Position numbers and translations under genes: made by a program. Source: a virus (Duplodnaviria; Caudoviricetes). From it: 34,589 nucleotides of DNA. This document shows positions 1,492 through 28,503 of the stretch, piece by piece. Under the pieces are notes generated by a model that was given only the letters and a program-made list of their open reading frames with translations, was not told where the DNA came from and did no database searches. Location: positions 1 to 34,589 of the IMG/VR virus record IMGVR_UViG_3300031260_000098. One strand, given 5' to 3'. The number at the start of each line of letters is the position of its first letter. Position 1 is the stretch's first letter.

Positions 1492-1556
1492 CCGTTATGC
1501 GGCATCGCAGCGAACCTGGACCTGGAAGCGATTCCGGGTGGCTCTTCCGGCCGCCG
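1492..1556 (+). promoter_or_regulatory. Candidate structured 5' leader of sulP (sul1-like RNA motif)
   Basis: Short hairpins CCG-TTATG-CGG (1492-1502) and CCGG...CCGG (1534-1550) lie ~85 nt upstream of sulP. The sul1 motif is described upstream of SulP genes in Alphaproteobacteria; the match is not verified. Confidence 0.45.
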
Positions 1557-1639
1557 ATCCGCCGGACAACCACAAGAAAACGGTGCACTTGCACGCCGAT
1601 CTCGCGCAAGCCGCAGGACCGGTATCGGACAACATTTAC

Positions 1640-11771: not shown

Positions 11772-12398
11772 TCATCGCCGGATCTCCAGCAACGGTATGG
11801 AGGTGATCGAGCCGCGCCGCTCGAGATCGAGCGTCACGTCGAGCACGTCGGTGTCGAACCGGACGGGGACGTCGAAGGCGAAACCCGCGGTGATCGCGAC
11901 GCCCGATCCCGGCGCGGCGCCAAAGCTGACGACGCCGGTCACGGTATCGACCGACCAGCCGGAGGGCTGCTCGACGCCACCGAGGGCGACGCGCACGCTG
12001 CCTGCCACCGGCTTGGCGATGCTACGCGTCCAGGACTGCGCCCCGGACGCGTAGCGCTTCACCAGCTGGAAGGCGGTCGTCGTGCCGTCGCCCGTGCCGA
12101 TCGCCTGATCGGTGGGCGACGGCGTACCCGAAGGCAGGCAGGACTTGTGGTCGCCCCAGTCCTTGAAGCGGAAGCCGTGCAGGCGCCCGTTCCGTGCCTC
12201 GAAGAAGGCGACGACCGCCGCCAGGTCGTCGGCGCGGCGGATGCCGTAAGCGACATCAAAGCGGCGGCGCGAGTTGGCCCAGCTCGCGTTGCGCTCCTCG
12301 TCGCCCGAGGCGAGCTCGACGATCTGCGTCCGCCGCTCCGGTCCACCGCGGGCGCCGCGGCTGATGTTGTCGGGAAACCGGACCTCGTGAAACGCCAT
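11772..12398 (-). CDS. DUF2460 / TIGR02217 distal tail protein (GTA g12-like)
   Basis: MAFHEVRFP, FFEARNGRLHGFRFKDW and FDVPVRFDTD motifs; TGATG overlap with the tape measure stop. Confidence 0.92.
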   Translation of the reverse strand: MAFHEVRFPDNISRGARGGPERRTQIVELASGDEERNASWANSRRRFDVAYGIRRADDLAAVVAFFEARNGRLHGFRFKDWGDHKSCLPSGTPSPTDQAIGTGDGTTTAFQLVKRYASGAQSWTRSIAKPVAGSVRVALGGVEQPSGWSVDTVTGVVSFGAAPGSGVAITAGFAFDVPVRFDTDVLDVTLDLERRGSITSIPLLEIRR

Positions 12399-14854
12399 CA
12401 CATGCCCCTCCGCCCGAGCGAGACGGCGCGGGCGATGTCCGCCGCGACCTGCGTGCGAGATTGCCGGAAGCTCTCGGCGTCGCGGGTGTTGATGTTCACC
12501 GTCACGCCACCGCCCGCGCCGTAGCTCTGCGCCTCGCGCCGCGAGAGCACCCGCTCGCCGCGCTGCAGGATCGCGGGCACCTCGTCGGGCCGGAGGCCCG
12601 CAAAACCAGAAGTGGGCCGGAGGCCCGCAAAGCCGGAAGTGGGCCGCAGCCCGGCCATGCCGCCGGAGTGCATCCGGGGTGCAGCGGTGAAGGCCATGGC
12701 CGGGACCATGCGCGCGGGGCCGGCGCTGCCGACCATCCCGCCCGCATGCAGGACATTGGCGAATATCCCGCCGCCCAGTTTGCCGAGCACGCCGGAGAGC
12801 GCACCCGCGACCGGCCCGAGGATGAAGCGCCGCGCCGCGAGTTTCGCGAGGTCCGCCAGCAGCGAGGTGACCAGATCGCGAAAGTTCAGCTTGCCGGTCT
12901 TCACGAACTCGCCCACGGCGTTCCCGGCCGAGCGGAAGGCCCCGACGAGGCTCTGGCCGATATCGCCGCCGATGTCGCGCGCCTTGTTGGCATAATCGGA
13001 GAGCGTCGCGACAACCGCCTCCCATCCCGTTTTCGTTTCCTGCGCCGCTTTCTTCCCCGCGCCACCGGCGCGCCCGCCCGCGGCGGCCGCATCGTCGAGG
13101 GACCGGGAAACATCGGATGCGGTCTTTGCGGTCTCGCCAAGCGCGGCTTCGGTTCCAGTCACGGCATCCTTGAGCGCCTGCCATGCTGTCATGGGGCGCG
13201 ACGCGGCATCCGAAAGCTTCCCCGCGGCCTCGGAATATTCCGCAGCCCGCCCGCGCGCGGCGTCGGCCATGCCGCCGAAGAGGTTCGGCGACTCGAGATA
13301 GGTGCGGCCCATGGCCGCGCGGAAGGCATCGCCGGCCGCGTTGCCCGCGGCGGCGGCAGCGCCGGCATAAGGGTTCTCGATCCCGCCCAGCGCCACAGGA
13401 TCCAGCGTGCCGATGCGGACACCGCCTTCGCCCGTCGCCCAATCCGGAAGCCGTGCCAGCGCGCTGTTGAGCGTCTCGATGAATGCGTTGATGCGGGTGA
13501 CAACCGCGTTGAGCATCGACTCGACGCCGCCGATCAGCCCGTTGGCCGCCTGGAAGACGAAATCCCCGATCGCCCGGGGCAGCATGCCCCAGGTCGCCCT
13601 GACCGCATCGAAGGCACCCTGGAACGTCCCGACCGCGCTGTTGCCCCAGCCCACCACCGCGTCCGTGGCGCCCTGCAGGCCGTCGTAGATCACCGCCTGC
13701 GCCGAGGCCCAGCCCGTCTCGACGCGCGCCCAGGCGGCGCGCGCGCTCAGCGAGATACGGTCCCAGGCCTCGACGGCGAGGTCCCCGAGCAGGCTCATGG
13801 CGTTGCCGAAACCGCCAGCGCCCTGCACGAGACGGGTGAACTGGTAGACCAGCTCGCCCGCGCCGACGATCAGCGCGCCGATACCGGTGCGAACGAGCGC
13901 GCCGCGCAGGACAACGAGCGTGGTGGCGAGGCCGCGCACCGACAGCGCGGCGGCCGCCAGCCCGGCCACCCAGCGGCCCGCGAGGAAGGCGGCGAAGCTC
14001 GCGGCATAGGTCGTCAGCCGGCCGAGGTTGGCGAAGAGGCCATGAATGGCAATGCCGAGCGGCCCGGTGGTGCGCGCCACGGCCGCCATGGCCTCGGCGA
14101 CGGTTTCCAGCGCAGGCGCCGCGGCGACCGCCAGCTGGTTCGAGAGCCCGCGCCAGATCAACCCAAGCCGGGAAATCGCGTCATTGGTGTGCTCGATCTG
14201 GTCGGCATCCTGGTCGGAGACCACCACCCCGAAGGCGAGCACGTCCTCTGTCGCCTGCCGCAGCGTTGCCGTGTCGATCCGGGTAAACACGAGCGCCGCG
14301 CGGTCGCCGAAGAGTTGCGAGGCGACCGCCGCGCGCTCGGCTTCCGGCACGAACGCGGCGAGCCTCTCCTGGATGAGGGCGATGCGCCGGTCGAGCGGCA
14401 GGGCCTGCAGTTCGGCCGCCGACACGCCAAGCCGGTCGAGCGCATCGGCTGCGGGACCAGTCCCCGCGGCGGCCTGGCTCAACCGCCGGGTCAGTTGCAG
14501 GGTGGCCTGCTCGATCTGGCCCATGGAGACACCGGCCAGATCGCCCGCGCGCTCCAGCACCTGAATACTGGCGACGGTGGTCTCGAGGGAAGCTGCGAGC
14601 TTGGCCTGCGCATCCACCGTCTGCAGACCGGAGCGGATCATGGCGACGCCCGCCGCCGTGGCCGCAGCCACCGCAGCGGCTGACGCGACCCGCACACGGC
14701 GCGAGAAGGCCGCCAGCCGCCGGTTCGCCGCCTCCATTTCCTGGCTGAGCCGCCCAAAGCCACGCTTGCCGACCTCGCCCACGCCTTCCAGCTCGGTGCG
14801 CACCTGCCGTCCGCCCACGGCCGCGAGGCGGACGCTGACCCGTTTCTCGGCCAT
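12398..14854 (-). CDS. Tail tape measure protein
   Basis: 818 aa, Ala/Gly-rich; MAEKRVSVRL start and GLRPDEVPAILQRGERVLSR C-terminus; lies downstream of the chaperone genes. Confidence 0.9.
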   Translation of the reverse strand: MAEKRVSVRLAAVGGRQVRTELEGVGEVGKRGFGRLSQEMEAANRRLAAFSRRVRVASAAAVAAATAAGVAMIRSGLQTVDAQAKLAASLETTVASIQVLERAGDLAGVSMGQIEQATLQLTRRLSQAAAGTGPAADALDRLGVSAAELQALPLDRRIALIQERLAAFVPEAERAAVASQLFGDRAALVFTRIDTATLRQATEDVLAFGVVVSDQDADQIEHTNDAISRLGLIWRGLSNQLAVAAAPALETVAEAMAAVARTTGPLGIAIHGLFANLGRLTTYAASFAAFLAGRWVAGLAAAALSVRGLATTLVVLRGALVRTGIGALIVGAGELVYQFTRLVQGAGGFGNAMSLLGDLAVEAWDRISLSARAAWARVETGWASAQAVIYDGLQGATDAVVGWGNSAVGTFQGAFDAVRATWGMLPRAIGDFVFQAANGLIGGVESMLNAVVTRINAFIETLNSALARLPDWATGEGGVRIGTLDPVALGGIENPYAGAAAAAGNAAGDAFRAAMGRTYLESPNLFGGMADAARGRAAEYSEAAGKLSDAASRPMTAWQALKDAVTGTEAALGETAKTASDVSRSLDDAAAAGGRAGGAGKKAAQETKTGWEAVVATLSDYANKARDIGGDIGQSLVGAFRSAGNAVGEFVKTGKLNFRDLVTSLLADLAKLAARRFILGPVAGALSGVLGKLGGGIFANVLHAGGMVGSAGPARMVPAMAFTAAPRMHSGGMAGLRPTSGFAGLRPTSGFAGLRPDEVPAILQRGERVLSRREAQSYGAGGGVTVNINTRDAESFRQSRTQVAADIARAVSLGRRGM
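12587..12653. repeat. 27-bp tandem repeat (about 2.5 copies) in the tape measure gene
   Basis: GGGCCGGAGGCCCGCAAAACCAGAAGT / GGGCCGGAGGCCCGCAAAGCCGGAAGT / GGGCCGCAGCCCG; protein (GLRPTSGFA)x2. Confidence 0.9.
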
Positions 14855-14899
14855 TACTGTGGTCCTCGCGCATTAGCGATGATTGTGCTACGGTTAGAC

Positions 14900-15160
14900 A
14901 TCCCAAAGGTCTGGGGAAAGGAGGTCTGTCTTGACCAAACTTTTGAATGACCCGGAAAACCCCACAGCGCGGGGATAACCACGGCTCTCCGGGGAAGCGC
15001 TTGATAGGAGTGCAAGAGCACCAGGGCTGAAAAGCCCCGTGGGATCGCGGTAAGGCGAGGCGTGGCGCGCTGGCTTATCAGCGACGTTACCCAAGCAGAC
15101 GGATCGTCCTATCCCGACCGAGCTGCTCAGCGGCCCCGCTCTGGCGGGGTCGCACTCTCT
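14900..15160 (+). ncRNA. Putative structured RNA moron carrying a 15-codon 5' ORF
   Basis: Extended -10-like TGCTACGGT (14886-14894), several nested helices, loop-loop complementarity GATAGG/CCTATC and a terminal GC hairpin. No credible long ORF. Confidence 0.55.
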
Positions 15161-15163
15161 TCT
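15130..15163 (+). terminator. Putative intrinsic terminator
   Basis: GCGGCCCCGC-TCTG-GCGGGGTCGC followed by pyrimidine-rich ACTCTCTTCT (weak U tract). Confidence 0.55.
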
Positions 15164-15826
15164 AACTGCCTTGTCTTGCCATCTGCTCGTTGAGCTTGGC
15201 GACCATCACCGCCTCAACGGCGGGCAGCAGTTCAGCAATGGCGAGCGGCGGCACGCCGAGCGCGTCCCCGAGCGCCAGCGCTGCTGACAGGTCCCAGCCG
15301 ATCACCGCGCCGGGCAGCACGCGCAGCTGACCTCCGAGACGGCCGACCAGGTCCCAGACCTGCCAACCCTCCGGCGTTTCCGGACGGTTCAGCCGCGCCG
15401 GGCAGTCCGGGCAGGCTTTCGTGCAGGCTTGGCAGTACCGCTCGCCCCCGCCGAAGGACCATTCGGCGAGAGCGCGGAGGCGTTTTTTTCCTGTTCCAGC
15501 AGCAGGCCCTTCGAGACGTAGGTCAGCTGGAAGGCCTCGAAGATCGGCCAGATGTCGAGCAACGCGTCGATGGCCTCGGGGCTGGGATCGATCGACTTGC
15601 CGTCGGCGTCGCCGATGCCCTCCCAGGCGAGCACGGCGCGCCGCGCGAGCGCCTTGACGAAGGCAAGGGCGCGCTCCTCGTCCGAAGCGTCGTCGGGCAC
15701 CGCCTCGACGGCGGGATCACTGCGGGTCGCCACCATCAGCGCGGTGGTCAGCGGGCGCAGCTGCACCCGGACGCCGGGCGCGAGGTCATGCCAGCGCGGG
15801 GCGTTCGTCAGGTCGAGCGTCAGCAT
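15162..15826 (-). CDS. Tail assembly chaperone, extended gpGT-like product via -1 frameshift
   Basis: After A-AAA-AAC the -1 frame reads RLRALAEWSFGGGERYCQAC...CPDCP...GWQVWDLV...KLNEQMARQGS and stops at 15162. Confidence 0.75.
15389..15826 (-). CDS. Tail assembly chaperone (gpG-like)
   Basis: MLTLDLTNAPRW start overlaps the tail tube stop (TGATG); lies between tube and tape measure genes. Confidence 0.85.
   Translation of the reverse strand: MLTLDLTNAPRWHDLAPGVRVQLRPLTTALMVATRSDPAVEAVPDDASDEERALAFVKALARRAVLAWEGIGDADGKSIDPSPEAIDALLDIWPIFEAFQLTYVSKGLLLEQEKNASALSPNGPSAGASGTAKPARKPARTARRG
15482..15488 (-). promoter_or_regulatory. Programmed -1 ribosomal frameshift slippery site A AAA AAC
   Basis: In-frame X XXY YYZ heptamer (EKN codons) at the canonical G/GT position. 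Confidence 0.8.
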
Positions 15827-24685: not shown

Positions 24686-24894
24686 CAGCGATCTCCGCGC
24701 GAGAAGCCCGCGAGCCCGGCCACCGGCAGCGGACGTGTGGTGCCCTCGATGGCGCGCTCGATGGTGCGGATCCGCGCCAGCAGATCGTCGGCCGAACCGT
24801 AGTCGACGGACTTGCCGTCATAGCTCACCCGGGTCGTGCCGCTGGCATAGGCCCGGCGCAGCGCCGAAAGCTCGGTTTCCGTCCAGTCGGTCAT
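24685..24894 (-). CDS. gpW-like head completion/head-tail joining protein
   Basis: 69-aa gene between TerL and portal; GTTRVSYDGKSVDY. Confidence 0.85.
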   Translation of the reverse strand: MTDWTETELSALRRAYASGTTRVSYDGKSVDYGSADDLLARIRTIERAIEGTTRPLPVAGLAGFSRGDR

Positions 24895-27800
24895 CAAAAC
24901 CATCCTCCGCGCCGCCCGAGCCAGTCGGAGCGGCGCTTGCCCTGCGGGGCCTGTCCCGGCCGGTTGATCTGCCCGGCGGGATCGGTGTCGGTGGGGGCCG
25001 CCCCGAGCTGATCCTCAAGGTCGCGCCATTTCTCGTCGGGCCAGCGATCCGCGCCCGCGATCCAGGCGGCGGCGCGGGCATAGACCCGGCAATCCAGCGC
25101 CTCGTTGCGCTCGCGGAGTTTCTGCCATTCCAGCCGGGCGAAGCCGCGTTTCGTGCGCACCGTCACCAGCTGCTCGGCCACGAACTGCTTCAGCCATTCG
25201 TTCTCGACCCAATGCGGCAGATGCACCGACCCGGGCGGAAACGCGGCACCGTCGGCCATGTCCTCCTCGGTCGGCCGCGCCAGCCGCAGGAAGCGGTAGG
25301 TCTCGGCCTTGAAGGTCGAGACCGCCACGGTCCAGAGCCGCGCCCCGCGCCGCAGGCGTTTGCCGCCCTCGGTCGCATCGACAAAGGTCGGGCCCGACAC
25401 CGGGCTCGAGCGGTTGAACCCCTCGACGCCCTTCACCGGCGACACCTGCCCGAACCCCTGCTCCCGCGACCAGGAATAGACCGCCGGGGCCTCGTAGCCC
25501 GTGTCGATGGCGAGCCGCGCAATGCGCAGATGCGCGCCGCGTTCATGCGGCCACGACCGGTCCAGCAGCGCGGTCAGCTCCGACCAGGCGTCATGCCGGT
25601 CGGGCCCGCCCTCGATGACGACGTGATCGACGAGCCAGCTTTCCAGCCCGCGACCCCAGGCCCAGACATCGACCTCGATCCGGTCCTTCTGCACGTCGGC
25701 CCCGGCGGTGAGGAACAGCCCGCCCGCGGGCACCGTGCCGGATGTCCAGCGCTCGCGCCGGTCGTAGAGCCGCTGCCAGTCCGGCGCTTCCCCGGTCTCG
25801 ACCCAGGTCTCGCCGAGGATCGTGTTGCGGAACGCCTTGATCGCCTCGTCCGACCCCTGTGCCGCGTCCCAGGCCCGCACGATCCGCTCCCAGCTCAGCC
25901 AGCCGATCGGCGAATAGAGCGCCGAGAGGTGATACCCGGCCGTGGTCGGATCGGCGGCCGTGGCGGTCGCCCGCCATTCGCCGCCCTCCAGCATGGCCGT
26001 CTTGTGATGCTCCGCGATGGGCGTCTCGCAGCCCTCGCAATGATACTCCGCCGTCTCCGGGCGGCCCTTCTGCCAGCGCAGCCGGTCGAACTTCAGCCAC
26101 TGCATCGCGCCGCAATGCGGGCATGGCACGAAGAACCGGCGCTGGTCGCTGGCCTCGTACTCGCGCTCGATGCGCGACAGCCCCCGGATTGTCGGCGTCG
26201 AGACCAGCAGCACCTTGCGCCGATGGGCGAAGGTCAGCGACCGCGCTTCCGCCAGCGTGACCGGATCGCCTTCCTCGTCGGCAGACGCGGGATACGCGTC
26301 GACCTCGTCGAGAAAGATGTACCGCGCCGGGGTGGACCGCAGCCCGACCGCCGAGTTCGCGCCCGTCATGATCAGGATGCCGCCGGCAAACTCCTTCGAC
26401 AGCATCGTGTTGCCCGCATCCCGCGAGCGGGCGGGCTTCACCCGCTCCCGAAGGTCCGGGCTCTCGTCGATCAGCGGATCGATCCGCTGGCGCGAGTTGC
26501 GCTTGGCCAGTTCCACGGTCGGCTGGACCGCGAGCATCGGCCCCGGCGCCTGGTGGATGGCGAACCCGATCCAGTTGTTGCCTGCCTCGGTGTTGTGTGT
26601 CGGGATCCATCCTTTTCCGCAGAGAAACAGGTGGCTCGGCGAGTCGACCTCAATGCAGCGCACTGGTACGCTGGTAACCGGCCGGATATCGACGATACGG
26701 CGACGACGGCTCTTCCACGGCCGCCCGTTTTCGATCGAGCGCATCCGGGCTCGCTTGCGCGAGAGCCGGAACATCGGCTCCTCGGCATAGGCCGTCCAGG
26801 AAATGCGCCAGTATTCGGCGGATTCGTAGATACGCCCTTCACACCCGAAGACTTTCCGGCGCGCCTTGCTCTGATAGACGGCGGGTTTGTAACCGAGGCT
26901 GCGCAGCAGCTCGACCATCGCGTCGATCAAGCCGCGGTCTGCATTCGAGAACTCGCAACGCTTCCCGTCCGGCGAAATCGTGCCGTCCGAGTCCATCAGC
27001 CCGCGCACCAGTTCCAGCCGCTGCCATCGGCTGGCGCGCATGTACGCCAGGGGCACGTGCTTGTTGTCGAGCACGTCCAGCTGCCTCAGCCGCATGATGA
27101 AGCGCGACCGGAAACAGTCCGAGAACGACGCGCCGCTCGCGTGCCGCATCCGAAAGGTCGGGTCGATCACGACATTGGCGATGCGGCCCTTGCGCCACTT
27201 CGGCAACCGGAACGCCGCCTCGACGCCGCACTCCATTAGATGCTCGACAACCTCGGCATCCTCCTCTTGCACCGAAATGTGGTTCATGATCGACGAACCG
27301 TCACCGAGCCAAAGACCCAGCACATAAGGATGGAGGATCAGGTTCTGGTCTGGCATGTCGACCGGATCGCAACAATCGATGGCATAGCGCCGGCGCTTGC
27401 CCTTCGCCCCGATGATCACGCGTCCAGCCATCTCGGCCGTCGTCAGTGTCCGCGCGGCAGGCCGGTCATTCGTGAAGTCCCAGACCGGCCAGCGGTGTTC
27501 CCCGTCCGCGACGATCCGCTCGCCATCGTCGAACACGACCTCGAAGCAAGCCCGCCCATTGAGCACGGGCGACAGGCCGGTCACCCGGCAGATACGCCCC
27601 CGCTCGTCGTAGAGCAAATCGCCCTCGATGATCTCGCCCATGGTCGTCCAGCCGAAGGGCGTGGGCACGGGCGTTTCGAGCGCGAGCGGGGCGCCGACCT
27701 GCGCCGCCTTCATGAACACGACCCGCTGGGTGGGATCGCCGGGCGAGAGCCGGTCCATGATCTCGCGCATGTAGGGCGTGCGGGCCGTCCGATACTGCCC

Positions 27801-27995
27801 CGGCTCGGCCGAGGCGCGGGACGACAGCTTGCGGTGCCGGTCGGCCCATTCCGACACGGTCAGGTCCGGGTCGGGCCGCAGCCCGGCGAGCCACGCCCGC
27901 AGGACATCCCTGGCCCCGTCGAAGGCCAGCGCGTCCGCGTCCTCAGCGGAGATCGGGCTGGATCTCGGCGAGGTCGTCGAGCTGGGATCGGACAT
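24894..27995 (-). CDS. terL: Terminase large subunit (lambda gpA family), intein-containing
   Basis: TVSEWAD, RTPYMREIMD, Walker A KAAQVGA/TE, Walker B IFLDEVD, STPT, CPHC, GADVQ and RNEALDC motifs. Start codon approximate. Confidence 0.95.
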   Translation of the reverse strand: MSDPSSTTSPRSSPISAEDADALAFDGARDVLRAWLAGLRPDPDLTVSEWADRHRKLSSRASAEPGQYRTARTPYMREIMDRLSPGDPTQRVVFMKAAQVGAPLALETPVPTPFGWTTMGEIIEGDLLYDERGRICRVTGLSPVLNGRACFEVVFDDGERIVADGEHRWPVWDFTNDRPAARTLTTAEMAGRVIIGAKGKRRRYAIDCCDPVDMPDQNLILHPYVLGLWLGDGSSIMNHISVQEEDAEVVEHLMECGVEAAFRLPKWRKGRIANVVIDPTFRMRHASGASFSDCFRSRFIMRLRQLDVLDNKHVPLAYMRASRWQRLELVRGLMDSDGTISPDGKRCEFSNADRGLIDAMVELLRSLGYKPAVYQSKARRKVFGCEGRIYESAEYWRISWTAYAEEPMFRLSRKRARMRSIENGRPWKSRRRRIVDIRPVTSVPVRCIEVDSPSHLFLCGKGWIPTHNTEAGNNWIGFAIHQAPGPMLAVQPTVELAKRNSRQRIDPLIDESPDLRERVKPARSRDAGNTMLSKEFAGGILIMTGANSAVGLRSTPARYIFLDEVDAYPASADEEGDPVTLAEARSLTFAHRRKVLLVSTPTIRGLSRIEREYEASDQRRFFVPCPHCGAMQWLKFDRLRWQKGRPETAEYHCEGCETPIAEHHKTAMLEGGEWRATATAADPTTAGYHLSALYSPIGWLSWERIVRAWDAAQGSDEAIKAFRNTILGETWVETGEAPDWQRLYDRRERWTSGTVPAGGLFLTAGADVQKDRIEVDVWAWGRGLESWLVDHVVIEGGPDRHDAWSELTALLDRSWPHERGAHLRIARLAIDTGYEAPAVYSWSREQGFGQVSPVKGVEGFNRSSPVSGPTFVDATEGGKRLRRGARLWTVAVSTFKAETYRFLRLARPTEEDMADGAAFPPGSVHLPHWVENEWLKQFVAEQLVTVRTKRGFARLEWQKLRERNEALDCRVYARAAAWIAGADRWPDEKWRDLEDQLGAAPTDTDPAGQINRPGQAPQGKRRSDWLGRRGGWF
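26592..27689 (-). mobile_element. 366-aa class 3 intein with LAGLIDADG homing endonuclease
   Basis: Runs PLALETPVPT...WIPTHN with Thr+1; ADGEHRW (block B), VRCIEV (block F), LGLWLGDG and LVRGLMDSDG. Confidence 0.9.
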
Positions 27996-28503
27996 GTTTC
28001 TCCAGAGCCTTCTGCATCGCGGCGGGCTCCACACCCAGATCGGCCGCCATCAGCGCGGCCACCCGGGCGGGCCAGTTGACCCAGACATCGCGCTCCTGCC
28101 GCGCGAGGCGGAACACCAGCGCCAGCGCGCGGGCACGGTCGACCAGCTCCCCCTTCAGCCTCGAGAGCCGGATGCGCCGCTCCTGCGCCTTCAGCACCTC
28201 GTTCGCGGTCTTGGCCTGCAGGAAGGTCGTAGCGCCGCCAACGGCCGGGGCGGACAGCCCCTGTTCGCGGAGCGTGTCGCCGACGGCGGCGACGGCGGCC
28301 TCGGGCACGGGTTTCAGCTTGGGCGCCGGCGCCTTTCGTGTCTTCGACGGGTCCGTCGTCTCGGCCCTGAGCCGGTCCGAGGCCGCGGCGTCGATGCTGC
28401 CATCCTCATGCAGGACGAGCCGGCCGGCGTCCTTCGCCTTCTGGATCGCGCCCCGCGACAGCCCGACACGGGCGGCGTACTGGCGCTCGCTCATGCCCTG
28501 CAT
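27943..28503 (-). CDS. Putative terminase small subunit (Nu1-like)
   Basis: N-terminal HTH (MSERQYAARVGLSRGAIQKA) and coiled coil ending GELVD; overlaps the TerL start. Confidence 0.75.
   Translation of the reverse strand: MQGMSERQYAARVGLSRGAIQKAKDAGRLVLHEDGSIDAAASDRLRAETTDPSKTRKAPAPKLKPVPEAAVAAVGDTLREQGLSAPAVGGATTFLQAKTANEVLKAQERRIRLSRLKGELVDRARALALVFRLARQERDVWVNWPARVAALMAADLGVEPAAMQKALEKHVRSQLDDLAEIQPDLR

What the first reader, a model, noticed from the sequence alone, without database searches (positions are those of the whole stretch)
14860..15163. Antisense moron that looks like a complex pseudoknotted RNA with a 15-codon leader ORF
Seen: a ~310-bp gap between chaperone and tape measure genes holds a + strand unit. 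It has TCGCGC-N17-TACGGT with a TG extension, a strong SD AAAGGAGGT (14917-14925) and TTG-start MTKLLNDPENPTARG* (14931-14978). Helices follow directly: CCACGG/CCGTGG (14979/15037) enclosing CTCT/AGAG, GCGCT/AGTGC and GGCT-GAAA-AGCC; GGTAA/TTACC (15049/15087) enclosing CGCTGG-CTTA-TCAGCG; and AGCAG/CTGCT (15094/15123). The loop CCTATC (15108-15113) is complementary to the distant loop GATAGG (15003-15008), and a terminator-like hairpin ends the unit. Inference: an independently expressed structured RNA at a moron position, possibly a ribozyme, ribosome-interacting RNA or RNA-based exclusion/defence factor. I could not assign it to a known family.
Basis: partly seen in the sequence, partly recalled or inferred. 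Interest (0 to 1): 0.8.

Follow-up and report, generated by a model that had tools for sequence, protein, structure and literature searches.

The report
Ribosome-gated pseudoknot RNA, FuFi-1 cousin
A prophage carries, in a slot where sister phages carry toxin-antitoxin genes, a roughly 250-base RNA gene whose fold is kept by matching base changes in relatives and whose front end, a ribosome landing site predicted to be locked in a hairpin plus a tiny non-conserved reading frame, is shared with the unexplained FuFi-1 RNAs, so it is likely an RNA device that a passing ribosome switches rather than a peptide gene.

Summary
Real. The unit (about 14905-15161, + strand) is an insert: 68 of 77 measurable sister prophages lack one at this junction, and 7 carry toxin-antitoxin-type genes there. 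Thirty-six homologs support the fold (17 of 32 pairs change on both sides; 0 of 500 shuffles), including the kissing loop (7 different complementary pairs). The peptide is not conserved (11-33 codons, frameshifts, other heads). The RNA has no Rfam match, but the same head sits unmodelled in front of 25 of 25 FuFi-1 RNAs (RF02986), which also share the wiring. Best reading: a ribosome-gated structured RNA of a FuFi-1-like superfamily spread over many phyla in accessory DNA; a defence or toxin-antitoxin-like role is plausible but untested. Expression evidence is weak (contigs only). The scan had noted the FuFi-1 front section on other DNA, but no look-alike of this RNA body.

The parts
14855..15161 (.). 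Inserted unit between the tape-measure start (14854, - strand) and the stop of the tail-chaperone T frame (15162, - strand)
14866..14894 (+).
14908..14952 (+). H0 lock hairpin (predicted): 14923-26/14933-36, 14916-20/14940-44, distal 14908-11/14949-52; buries SD and start codon
14917..14925 (+). Strong Shine-Dalgarno (8-nt match to the E. coli 16S 3' end; 6-8 nt in 36 of 36 homologs)
14931..14978 (+). 15-codon mini-ORF, TTG start; length and sequence after codon 9 not conserved
14951..14993 (+). P1 pseudoknot helix 14951-14955 with 14989-14993; its 5' strand overlaps the distal H0 helix
   Evidence: (36 of 36 pair; one double change, L332)
14960..14974 (+). P2 hairpin inside the mini-ORF
   Evidence: 3 of 4 pairs with double changes
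14979..15042 (+). P3 (14979-83/15038-42), P4 (14984-88/15015-19) and P6 hairpin (15024-37), crossed by P1
14997..15013 (+). P5 hairpin whose loop carries the 5' half of the kissing loop
15047..15096 (+). P7 short hairpin with a GNRA-type loop (15047-56; label recalled) and variable P8 domain
15094..15127 (+). P9 hairpin whose loop (15107-15114) pairs with the P5 loop (15003-15009): second pseudoknot
15130..15161 (+). Intrinsic-terminator-like hairpin and pyrimidine tail

Best explanation
This is a free-standing RNA gene of about 250 bases, inserted against the tail operon, in which a 5' hairpin is predicted to lock a strong ribosome-binding site and a disposable mini-ORF runs into a covarying double-pseudoknot body, so it likely works as a ribosome-gated RNA whose fold and lifetime would be set by whether a ribosome loads and reads through it. 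Shown: the insert, the conserved pairings, the conserved SD with an interchangeable start codon, the non-conserved peptide, and the head shared with FuFi-1. Inferred steps: (1) the nascent RNA folds the lock and is translation-silent; (2) as the body folds, helix P1 takes the strand that ends the lock and loosens it; (3) a ribosome then loads, meets P1 within a few codons and, in reaching the stop, unzips P1-P4 and often the kissing loop, which would refold the RNA or send it to decay, as start-codon-dependent turnover does for rreB; (4) the intact folded body is the working part, and would accumulate when host translation falters. Its target is unknown. Its place in a toxin-antitoxin slot and in accessory DNA suggests a defence or maintenance role (about 0.35 on its own).
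For: Lock: SD-to-ORF pairing and a distal leader helix together in 87 of 99 distinct heads versus 5 of 94 long-ORF control genes with a similar SD and start; the distal helix, which no search pattern imposed, in 93 of 99 versus 26 of 94 (folds). Initiation signal kept: TTG 28, ATG 6, GTG 2 of 36; a 6-8 nt SD in 36 of 36, including 21 metagenome members found with a pattern lacking the SD. Peptide disposable: 11-33 codons, variable after codon 9. In the synonymous-tolerant scan the exact ACC-AAR-CTT-TTG-A occurs only before ORFs of 23 codons or fewer, and synonymous variants form no family. Codon 3 is Lys, Asn or Gln. The same body occurs behind four unrelated heads (L668, L669, L670, second copy in L342), each still SD + start + anti-SD abutting P1. 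Competition: the leader pairs with the P1 strand in 77 of 99 heads; removing that strand lowers the cost of opening the ribosome site in 21 of 34 (window 10.4 to 4.4 kcal/mol). Body: 91.5% of cells paired, 17 of 32 pairs with double changes, 0 of 500 shuffles; kissing loop with 7 different complementary pairs in 8 hand-located members. FuFi-1 link: 25 of 25 FuFi-1 RNAs found by a 3' pattern have a locked head; in 16 of 16 parsed, the central loop pairs with a 3' element (1 of 5000 permutations; related sequences), and 13 of 16 have a rival P1 of 5 or more pairs. Context: PIN-, HigB- and HTH-type modules at the same junction and orientation in 7 sister prophages; no recurring protein partner. 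Precedent: rreB is weakly translated from a hairpin-buried site, and its start codon shortens its half-life (PMC5711450); in timP a pseudoknot frees a sequestered SD (PMC13000454, PMC11228461 abstracts).
Against: No experiment shows translation, switching or a target. The predicted loosening is small for most members (median 12.9 to 10.9 kcal/mol; 13 of 34 change by 1 kcal or less), so the site may stay mostly shut. P1 is almost invariant (1 double change in 36), so it is supported mainly by conservation. SD-to-ORF pairing is partly built into the search patterns. On the automatic alignment only 1 of 6 kissing pairs shows a double change; no partner loop was found in L001, L675, L677, L388, L394, L400 or the second L342 copy. 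L677 keeps much of the body without a clear SD or start. The single-strand MFE of the window prefers a different long-range fold that pairs the SD with the 3' hairpin. The window's own promoter is weak. Expression rests on contigs that give no strand or ends.
Confidence: 0.45

Rival explanations
1. CreT-like RNA toxin: once unlocked, the head captures ribosomes and holds them against the pseudoknot after a few codons, draining ribosomes or peptidyl-tRNA; the lock hairpin is the built-in antidote.
For: Strong SD, start codon and hairpin with a dispensable peptide are what Acinetobacter CreT needs (PMC10097628 passages). In the MTKLL clade P1 begins 20 nt after the start in 36 of 36 (spacing imposed by the pattern for 21 of them). 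Toxin-antitoxin slot. Transposon-type breaks in L359, L367, L386 and ACG-start variants could be escapes from a cost.
Against: No cas gene or other recurring partner was seen next to the loci. The weak TTG start dominates (28 of 36). The spacing is 16-35 nt in other-head members. rreB overproduction did not slow growth. A large conserved tertiary body is more than CreT needs.
Confidence: 0.2
2. The head is only a stabilising 5' hairpin and the body acts on its own (a protein- or ribosome-binding scaffold); SD and ORF are passengers.
For: The lock stays strong even with P1 formed; L677 lacks a clear SD; Rfam models FuFi-1 without the head.
Against: A 6-8 nt SD at the right distance from an A/G/T-TG start is kept in 36 of 36, in 25 of 25 FuFi-1 heads, and in unrelated heads on the same body. 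A mere cap would not need it.
Confidence: 0.12
3. Cis-antisense or head-on brake on leaky lytic transcription in the lysogen.
For: It lies against the tail operon in the window, L110, L152 and L390; earlier scan notes report FuFi-1 facing lytic transcripts (unchecked).
Against: Most genome copies lie among unrelated genes in either orientation. Neither the tertiary fold nor the SD is needed for this. Protein morons at the junction share the orientation.
Confidence: 0.08
4. Small-protein or type I toxin gene: the short peptide is the product.
For: Thr-x-Leu-Leu is kept in frame across phyla; SD sequestration is typical of type I toxin mRNAs (PMC11228461 introduction).
Against: Length 11-33 codons with frameshifts; no synonymous variation; unrelated peptides on the same body; not a hydrophobic membrane peptide; no antisense gene evident.
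Confidence: 0.06
5. Self-cleaving or other ribozyme.
For: Double pseudoknot with invariant positions.
Against: No Rfam ribozyme match even at E up to 10; terminator-ended; FuFi-1 showed no self-cleavage, though possibly tested without its head (PMC5737381 passages; supplement unreadable).
Confidence: 0.05
6. Two-site 16S binder: the SD grips the 3' end while codons 1-5 pair with 16S nucleotides 5-19 (central pseudoknot region, label recalled).
For: The best 16S match of the head is at nucleotides 5-19, 13 of 15 pairs, reached by 2 of 300 shuffles.
Against: AAC and CAA variants break the pairing while keeping the lock; no family with the better complement among 31 viral hits; other heads lack it. 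The lock hairpin explains the sequence.
Confidence: 0.03

Closest known systems
FuFi-1 RNA motif (Rfam RF02986; Weinberg et al. 2017, PMC5737381; passages read, supplement not readable)
   Same: Orphan, free-standing, terminator-ended structured RNA. Full-length FuFi-1 genes start with the same locked SD and NUG-ACC-NAN-CUU-UUG-A head (24 of 25; one other locked head). They show the same wiring: a strand near +20 that pairs with the leader or downstream, and a central hairpin loop that pairs with a 3' element before the terminator.
   Different: The window's body has no match to RF02986 even at E up to 10, and model R1 matches only the head of a FuFi-1 locus. Different helices (P2, P4, P6, P7, P9; loop-loop kiss). 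Found mainly in Alphaproteobacteria and other phyla, not Firmicutes/Fusobacteria. The Rfam model omits the head.
rreB / rreR small mRNAs of Alphaproteobacteria (PMC5711450; parts 1-4 of 6 of the main text read)
   Same: Small stand-alone RNA with an SD and weak start codon inside a hairpin and a short ORF; ribosome-dependent turnover is the precedent for the proposed gate.
   Different: rre is defined by 16-17 nt complementarity to the 16S 3' end and has a clade-conserved peptide and conserved chromosomal context. Here the match is 6-8 nt, the peptide varies, the distribution is patchy, and there is a double-pseudoknot body.
CreT RNA toxins (PMC10097628 passages; bioRxiv 10.64898/2026.06.02.729485 abstract)
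   Same: SD + start codon + hairpin matter, the peptide does not.
   Different: CreT is short, lies in CRISPR-Cas loci and is repressed by CreA. No cas gene or CreA-like partner was seen next to these loci; toxicity is untested here.
timP type I toxin mRNA switch (PMC13000454 abstract; PMC11228461 abstract and opening)
   Same: A sequestered SD is released by pseudoknot formation without processing.
   Different: In timP the structure lies upstream of a conserved membrane toxin ORF and an antitoxin sRNA exists. Here the structure lies within and after a non-conserved ORF, and no antitoxin is evident.

Membership tests
FuFi-1 (RF02986) | Score above the Rfam gathering threshold (59.6 bits) | tested here: not met
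   no FuFi-1 match at gathering or at E up to 10
FuFi-1 (RF02986) | Free-standing motif followed by a Rho-independent terminator | tested here: met
FuFi-1 (RF02986) | 5' locked-SD mini-ORF head of full-length genes (not in the Rfam model; established here) | tested here: met
   25 of 25 FuFi-1 loci and the window
FuFi-1 (RF02986) | Common ancestry of the body (shared wiring) | tested here: inconclusive
   same order of pairings but no sequence or model similarity
FuFi-1 (RF02986) | Occurrence in Fusobacteria/Firmicutes | tested here: not met
   named holders of this body are mainly Alphaproteobacteria, plus Chromatiaceae, Ca. Binatia and Pirellulales records
rre small mRNAs | 16-17 nt complementarity to the 16S 3' end reaching the start codon | tested here: not met
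   6-8 nt against E. coli 16S in 36 of 36
rre small mRNAs | SD and start codon in a hairpin, short ORF | tested here: met
rre small mRNAs | 30S binding and start-codon-dependent decay | not testable with these tools
   needs gradients and half-life assays
CreT RNA toxins | Linked cas operon and CreA guide | tested here: not met
   no cas family among 37 window proteins or 115 neighbour ORFs
CreT RNA toxins | Toxicity needing SD and start codon | not testable with these tools
   needs expression tests
Type I toxin-antitoxin mRNA | Conserved toxic peptide | tested here: not met
Type I toxin-antitoxin mRNA | Antisense antitoxin RNA | tested here: inconclusive
   no minus-strand promoter or terminator hit in 14700-15400; no stranded reads available
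Self-cleaving ribozymes in Rfam | Match to a known ribozyme model | tested here: not met

The most novel reading that the evidence does not exclude
A cross-phylum class of protein-free defence or addiction modules: a folded RNA is the effector and the host ribosome is its off-switch. Ongoing translation of the mini-ORF keeps unfolding and destroying the RNA; when a phage or a rival toxin shuts host translation down, the intact double-pseudoknot RNA builds up and acts. FuFi-1 and this RNA would be two bodies on one ribosome-sensing head.
Probability: 0.15. Interest if true: 0.92.

Novelty: new variant of a known kind. Interest (0 to 1): 0.68.

Why it matters
FuFi-1 was flagged in 2017 as a widespread RNA of likely sophisticated but unknown function, and only that paper in the library names it. 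The finding shows that FuFi-1 genes begin with an unmodelled locked ribosome-binding head, that the same head drives a second, uncatalogued RNA body, and that the head occurs in many phyla (44 of 47 genome hits after dropping 3 ordinary genes). That turns an orphan motif into a superfamily with a directly testable mechanism: mutate the start codon, the lock or P1. Its seat in a toxin-antitoxin slot of a prophage raises the possibility of RNA-only defence or addiction modules.

Tried and rejected
Rfam at gathering (whole window) and at E up to 10 (locus): nothing relevant. No tRNA or tmRNA. BLAST of annotated phages: no match; plasmids: one real hit in Methylocystis, one chance hit. A loose pattern on P3 plus the loop gave almost only chance hits. 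Pairing of the head with 16S nucleotides 5-19 looked significant but was rejected. A +1 slip at CUU-U into UGA at a P1 roadblock was considered; it fits the MTKLL clade only, since other heads lack it, and was not adopted. Pairing of the P2 loop with the CGC before P7 is complete in 35 of 36 but shows only one-sided changes: left open. No recurring protein partner. Model R1 hits L672, L673 and L674 were judged chance, and L680 was not inspected. Two further weak FuFi-1 hits (L681, L682) were not inspected, and L665 looked like chance. A first parse of FuFi-1 pairings mis-anchored (not significant) and was redone with stricter anchors. Literature searches that found no description of this RNA or head.

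Full report
Setting. The window is a virus record: a prophage with lambda-type terminase and portal and a tail like that of gene transfer agents (Pfam). The finding lies between the tape-measure gene (12398-14854, - strand) and the tail chaperone, whose last frame stops at 15162. Of 78 related viral loci examined (78 of the 80; two lacked upstream DNA), 77 were measurable: 68 have a 6-35 nt gap at this junction, 2 are identical copies of this sequence, and 7 hold other inserts. Those 7 are toxin-antitoxin-type modules on the strand opposite the tail genes. Four have a Pfam-confirmed PIN gene, a fifth (L039) has a similar ORF that I did not scan, one has HigB plus an HTH gene, and one has a lone HTH gene. 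Three more prophage lineages (L110, L152 with its near-copies, L390) carry the RNA at this same junction.

Observation. The 251-nt unit folds better than 200 of 200 shuffles (z -3.65). Rfam has no match.

Homologs. Pattern scans gave 47 genome hits, 38 metagenome hits and a few viral ones. I aligned 36 members with the full body: 15 from the window, viruses, a plasmid and genomes, and 21 of the 38 metagenome hits; the 17 dropped were 11 duplicates or near-duplicates, 3 truncated or interrupted, and 3 divergent. On 32 proposed pairs, 91.5% of cells pair and 17 pairs change on both sides, against 8.3 in shuffles (0 of 500), and slid controls fall to about 40%. This supports P2, P3, P4, P5, P6 and P9. 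The kissing loop is nearly invariant in the alignment (1 of 6 pairs with a double change). In 8 hand-located members both halves lie in hairpin loops and show 7 different complementary pairs; no partner was found in 7 other divergent or broken copies. A covariance model found genuine-looking copies in 7 of 151 genomes of one family (9 hits, 2 judged chance), 5 of 151, 1 of 151 and 1 of 151 in three other samples, each count including the centre genome. The distribution is patchy, as for accessory DNA. Neighbours include integrases, transposases, a resolvase, and HEPN, Fic and PemK genes, but also ordinary genes, and no protein family recurs.

The head. The most conserved part is the first 45 nt. 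SD plus NUG-ACC-AAR-CUU-UUG-A occurs in records of many phyla; 44 of the 47 genome hits remain after dropping 3 ordinary long genes. The start codon interchanges (TTG 28, ATG 6, GTG 2 of 36), and the SD is present even where the pattern did not ask for it, so initiation is under selection. The peptide is not: 11-33 codons, frameshifts, variable after codon 9, no synonymous variants in the family, codon 3 Lys, Asn or Gln. The fixed letters are explained by a hairpin that buries the SD and start codon and is extended by a leader helix whose sequence differs freely between phyla. Both parts are present in 87 of 99 distinct heads and in 5 of 94 control genes; the distal helix, which no pattern imposed, in 93 of 99 versus 26 of 94. 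The same body also occurs behind four unrelated heads, each again an SD, a start codon, a short ORF and an anti-SD that abuts P1. The 3' strand of the lock overlaps the 5' strand of P1 in 77 of 99. Removing that strand lowers the predicted cost of opening the ribosome site by more than 1 kcal/mol in 21 of 34 members: strongly in the window (10.4 to 4.4), modestly at the median (12.9 to 10.9). The head also matches E. coli 16S nucleotides 5-19 better than 298 of 300 shuffles, but natural variants break that match while keeping the lock, so I reject it.

Link to FuFi-1. Gut-phage carriers of the same head turned out to have bodies that match Rfam FuFi-1 (7 of 20 sources; 1 of 20). As a test free of head bias I scanned for a 3' FuFi-1 motif: 25 of 40 loci pass the FuFi-1 threshold, and all 25 (9 distinct upstream sequences) carry a locked SD and mini-ORF, 24 of the same type. 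Two further hits from a genome search have variant heads. In 16 of 18 FuFi-1 loci that could be parsed, the central hairpin loop pairs by 4-6 bases with an element just before the terminator, with matching changes (1 of 5000 permutations; the sequences are related, so this is not a probability). Thirteen of the 16 have a rival downstream partner for the strand near +20. That is the wiring of the window's RNA, yet the bodies show no sequence or model similarity. Weinberg et al. list FuFi-1 as a terminator-ended motif of unknown function without self-cleavage (PMC5737381, passages; the supplement could not be read, and may mention the head or the pseudoknot). Earlier notes of this scan had seen a tiny ORF in front of FuFi-1; none shows a look-alike of this body.

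Expression. Only contigs were available. In RNA-seq run X3 the only long near-identical pieces over 20 kb cover 14916-15062, starting at the SD. In X2, labelled metatranscriptomic but flagged as probably DNA, pieces at 14965-15121 have depth 24-69, while most others lie at 2-6 (one short piece at 35). X1 covers the whole prophage and says nothing; X22, from the same sample as X2, lacks the RNA. This is a weak hint. Twenty-seven of 31 homologs show a TTG(A/C) box about 52-61 nt before the start, which would put the 5' end at the foot of the lock; the window's own copy does not (promoter reading from recalled consensus).

Mechanism. I commit to a ribosome-gated RNA (0.45). The nascent RNA locks its own ribosome site. 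Folding of the body takes the end of the lock for P1. A ribosome that loads must unzip the pseudoknots to reach the stop, so translation sets the RNA's fold and lifetime, and the intact body is the effector. The precedents are start-codon-dependent decay of rreB (PMC5711450, parts 1-4 of 6 read; supplement not read) and pseudoknot release of the timP SD (abstracts). All of these steps are inferred. The main rival is a CreT-like ribosome trap (0.2; PMC10097628 passages; a 2026 preprint abstract). Weaker rivals are a passive 5' cap, cis-antisense action, a functional peptide and a ribozyme. A 2026 preprint shows that a sister orphan motif, skipping-rope, is a tRNA mimic (abstract); no tRNA-like call was made here.

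Verdict. Real, conserved and not catalogued. It is not a member of FuFi-1 by score, nor of rre, CreT or type I toxin mRNAs by their defining features. It is best filed as a new variant of the FuFi-1 kind that reveals a shared, ribosome-addressed head. Interest 0.68.

Noticed in passing
window 1515-1571 (+): Rfam sul1 RNA match (RF03058, 72 bits) near the left end of the prophage.
   Followed up: no
window 24894-28034 (-): The terminase large subunit is 1046 aa with a LAGLIDADG domain splitting the ATPase domain, as for an intein.
   Followed up: no
window 15481-15490 (-): A-run where the tail chaperone frame overlaps a second frame ending at 15162: likely the usual G/GT programmed frameshift (recalled).
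   Followed up: partly
L014, L035, L039, L045, L070, L025, L018, just upstream of the tape-measure match: The chaperone/tape-measure junction is a hotspot for PIN-type, HigB-type and lone-HTH modules.
   Followed up: yes
L328, L330, L336, L337, L343, L351, L355, L362, L370, L439, L456, L504, L571 (head positions as): The same locked head sits on further bodies that match neither model R1 beyond the head nor Rfam where scanned: probably more uncatalogued RNA families.
   Followed up: partly
L663-L664, L683-L722: FuFi-1 genes have a 45-180 nt 5' extension and a loop-to-3' pseudoknot that the Rfam model lacks.
   Followed up: yes
L475 (about 280-330, -): Tandem 12-nt duplication of the head motif in a gut phage copy.
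   Followed up: no
L570, L596: FuFi-1-type heads with an ACG start codon in 7 viral records.
   Followed up: no
L359, L367, L386; L328, L335, L337: Three copies are broken by transposon-type sequence shortly after the head, and three have group II introns nearby.
   Followed up: partly
L342 2493-2555 and 3060-3235 (+): Two members in tandem, with different heads, in an actinobacterial record; one genome (G002) also holds two copies.
   Followed up: partly
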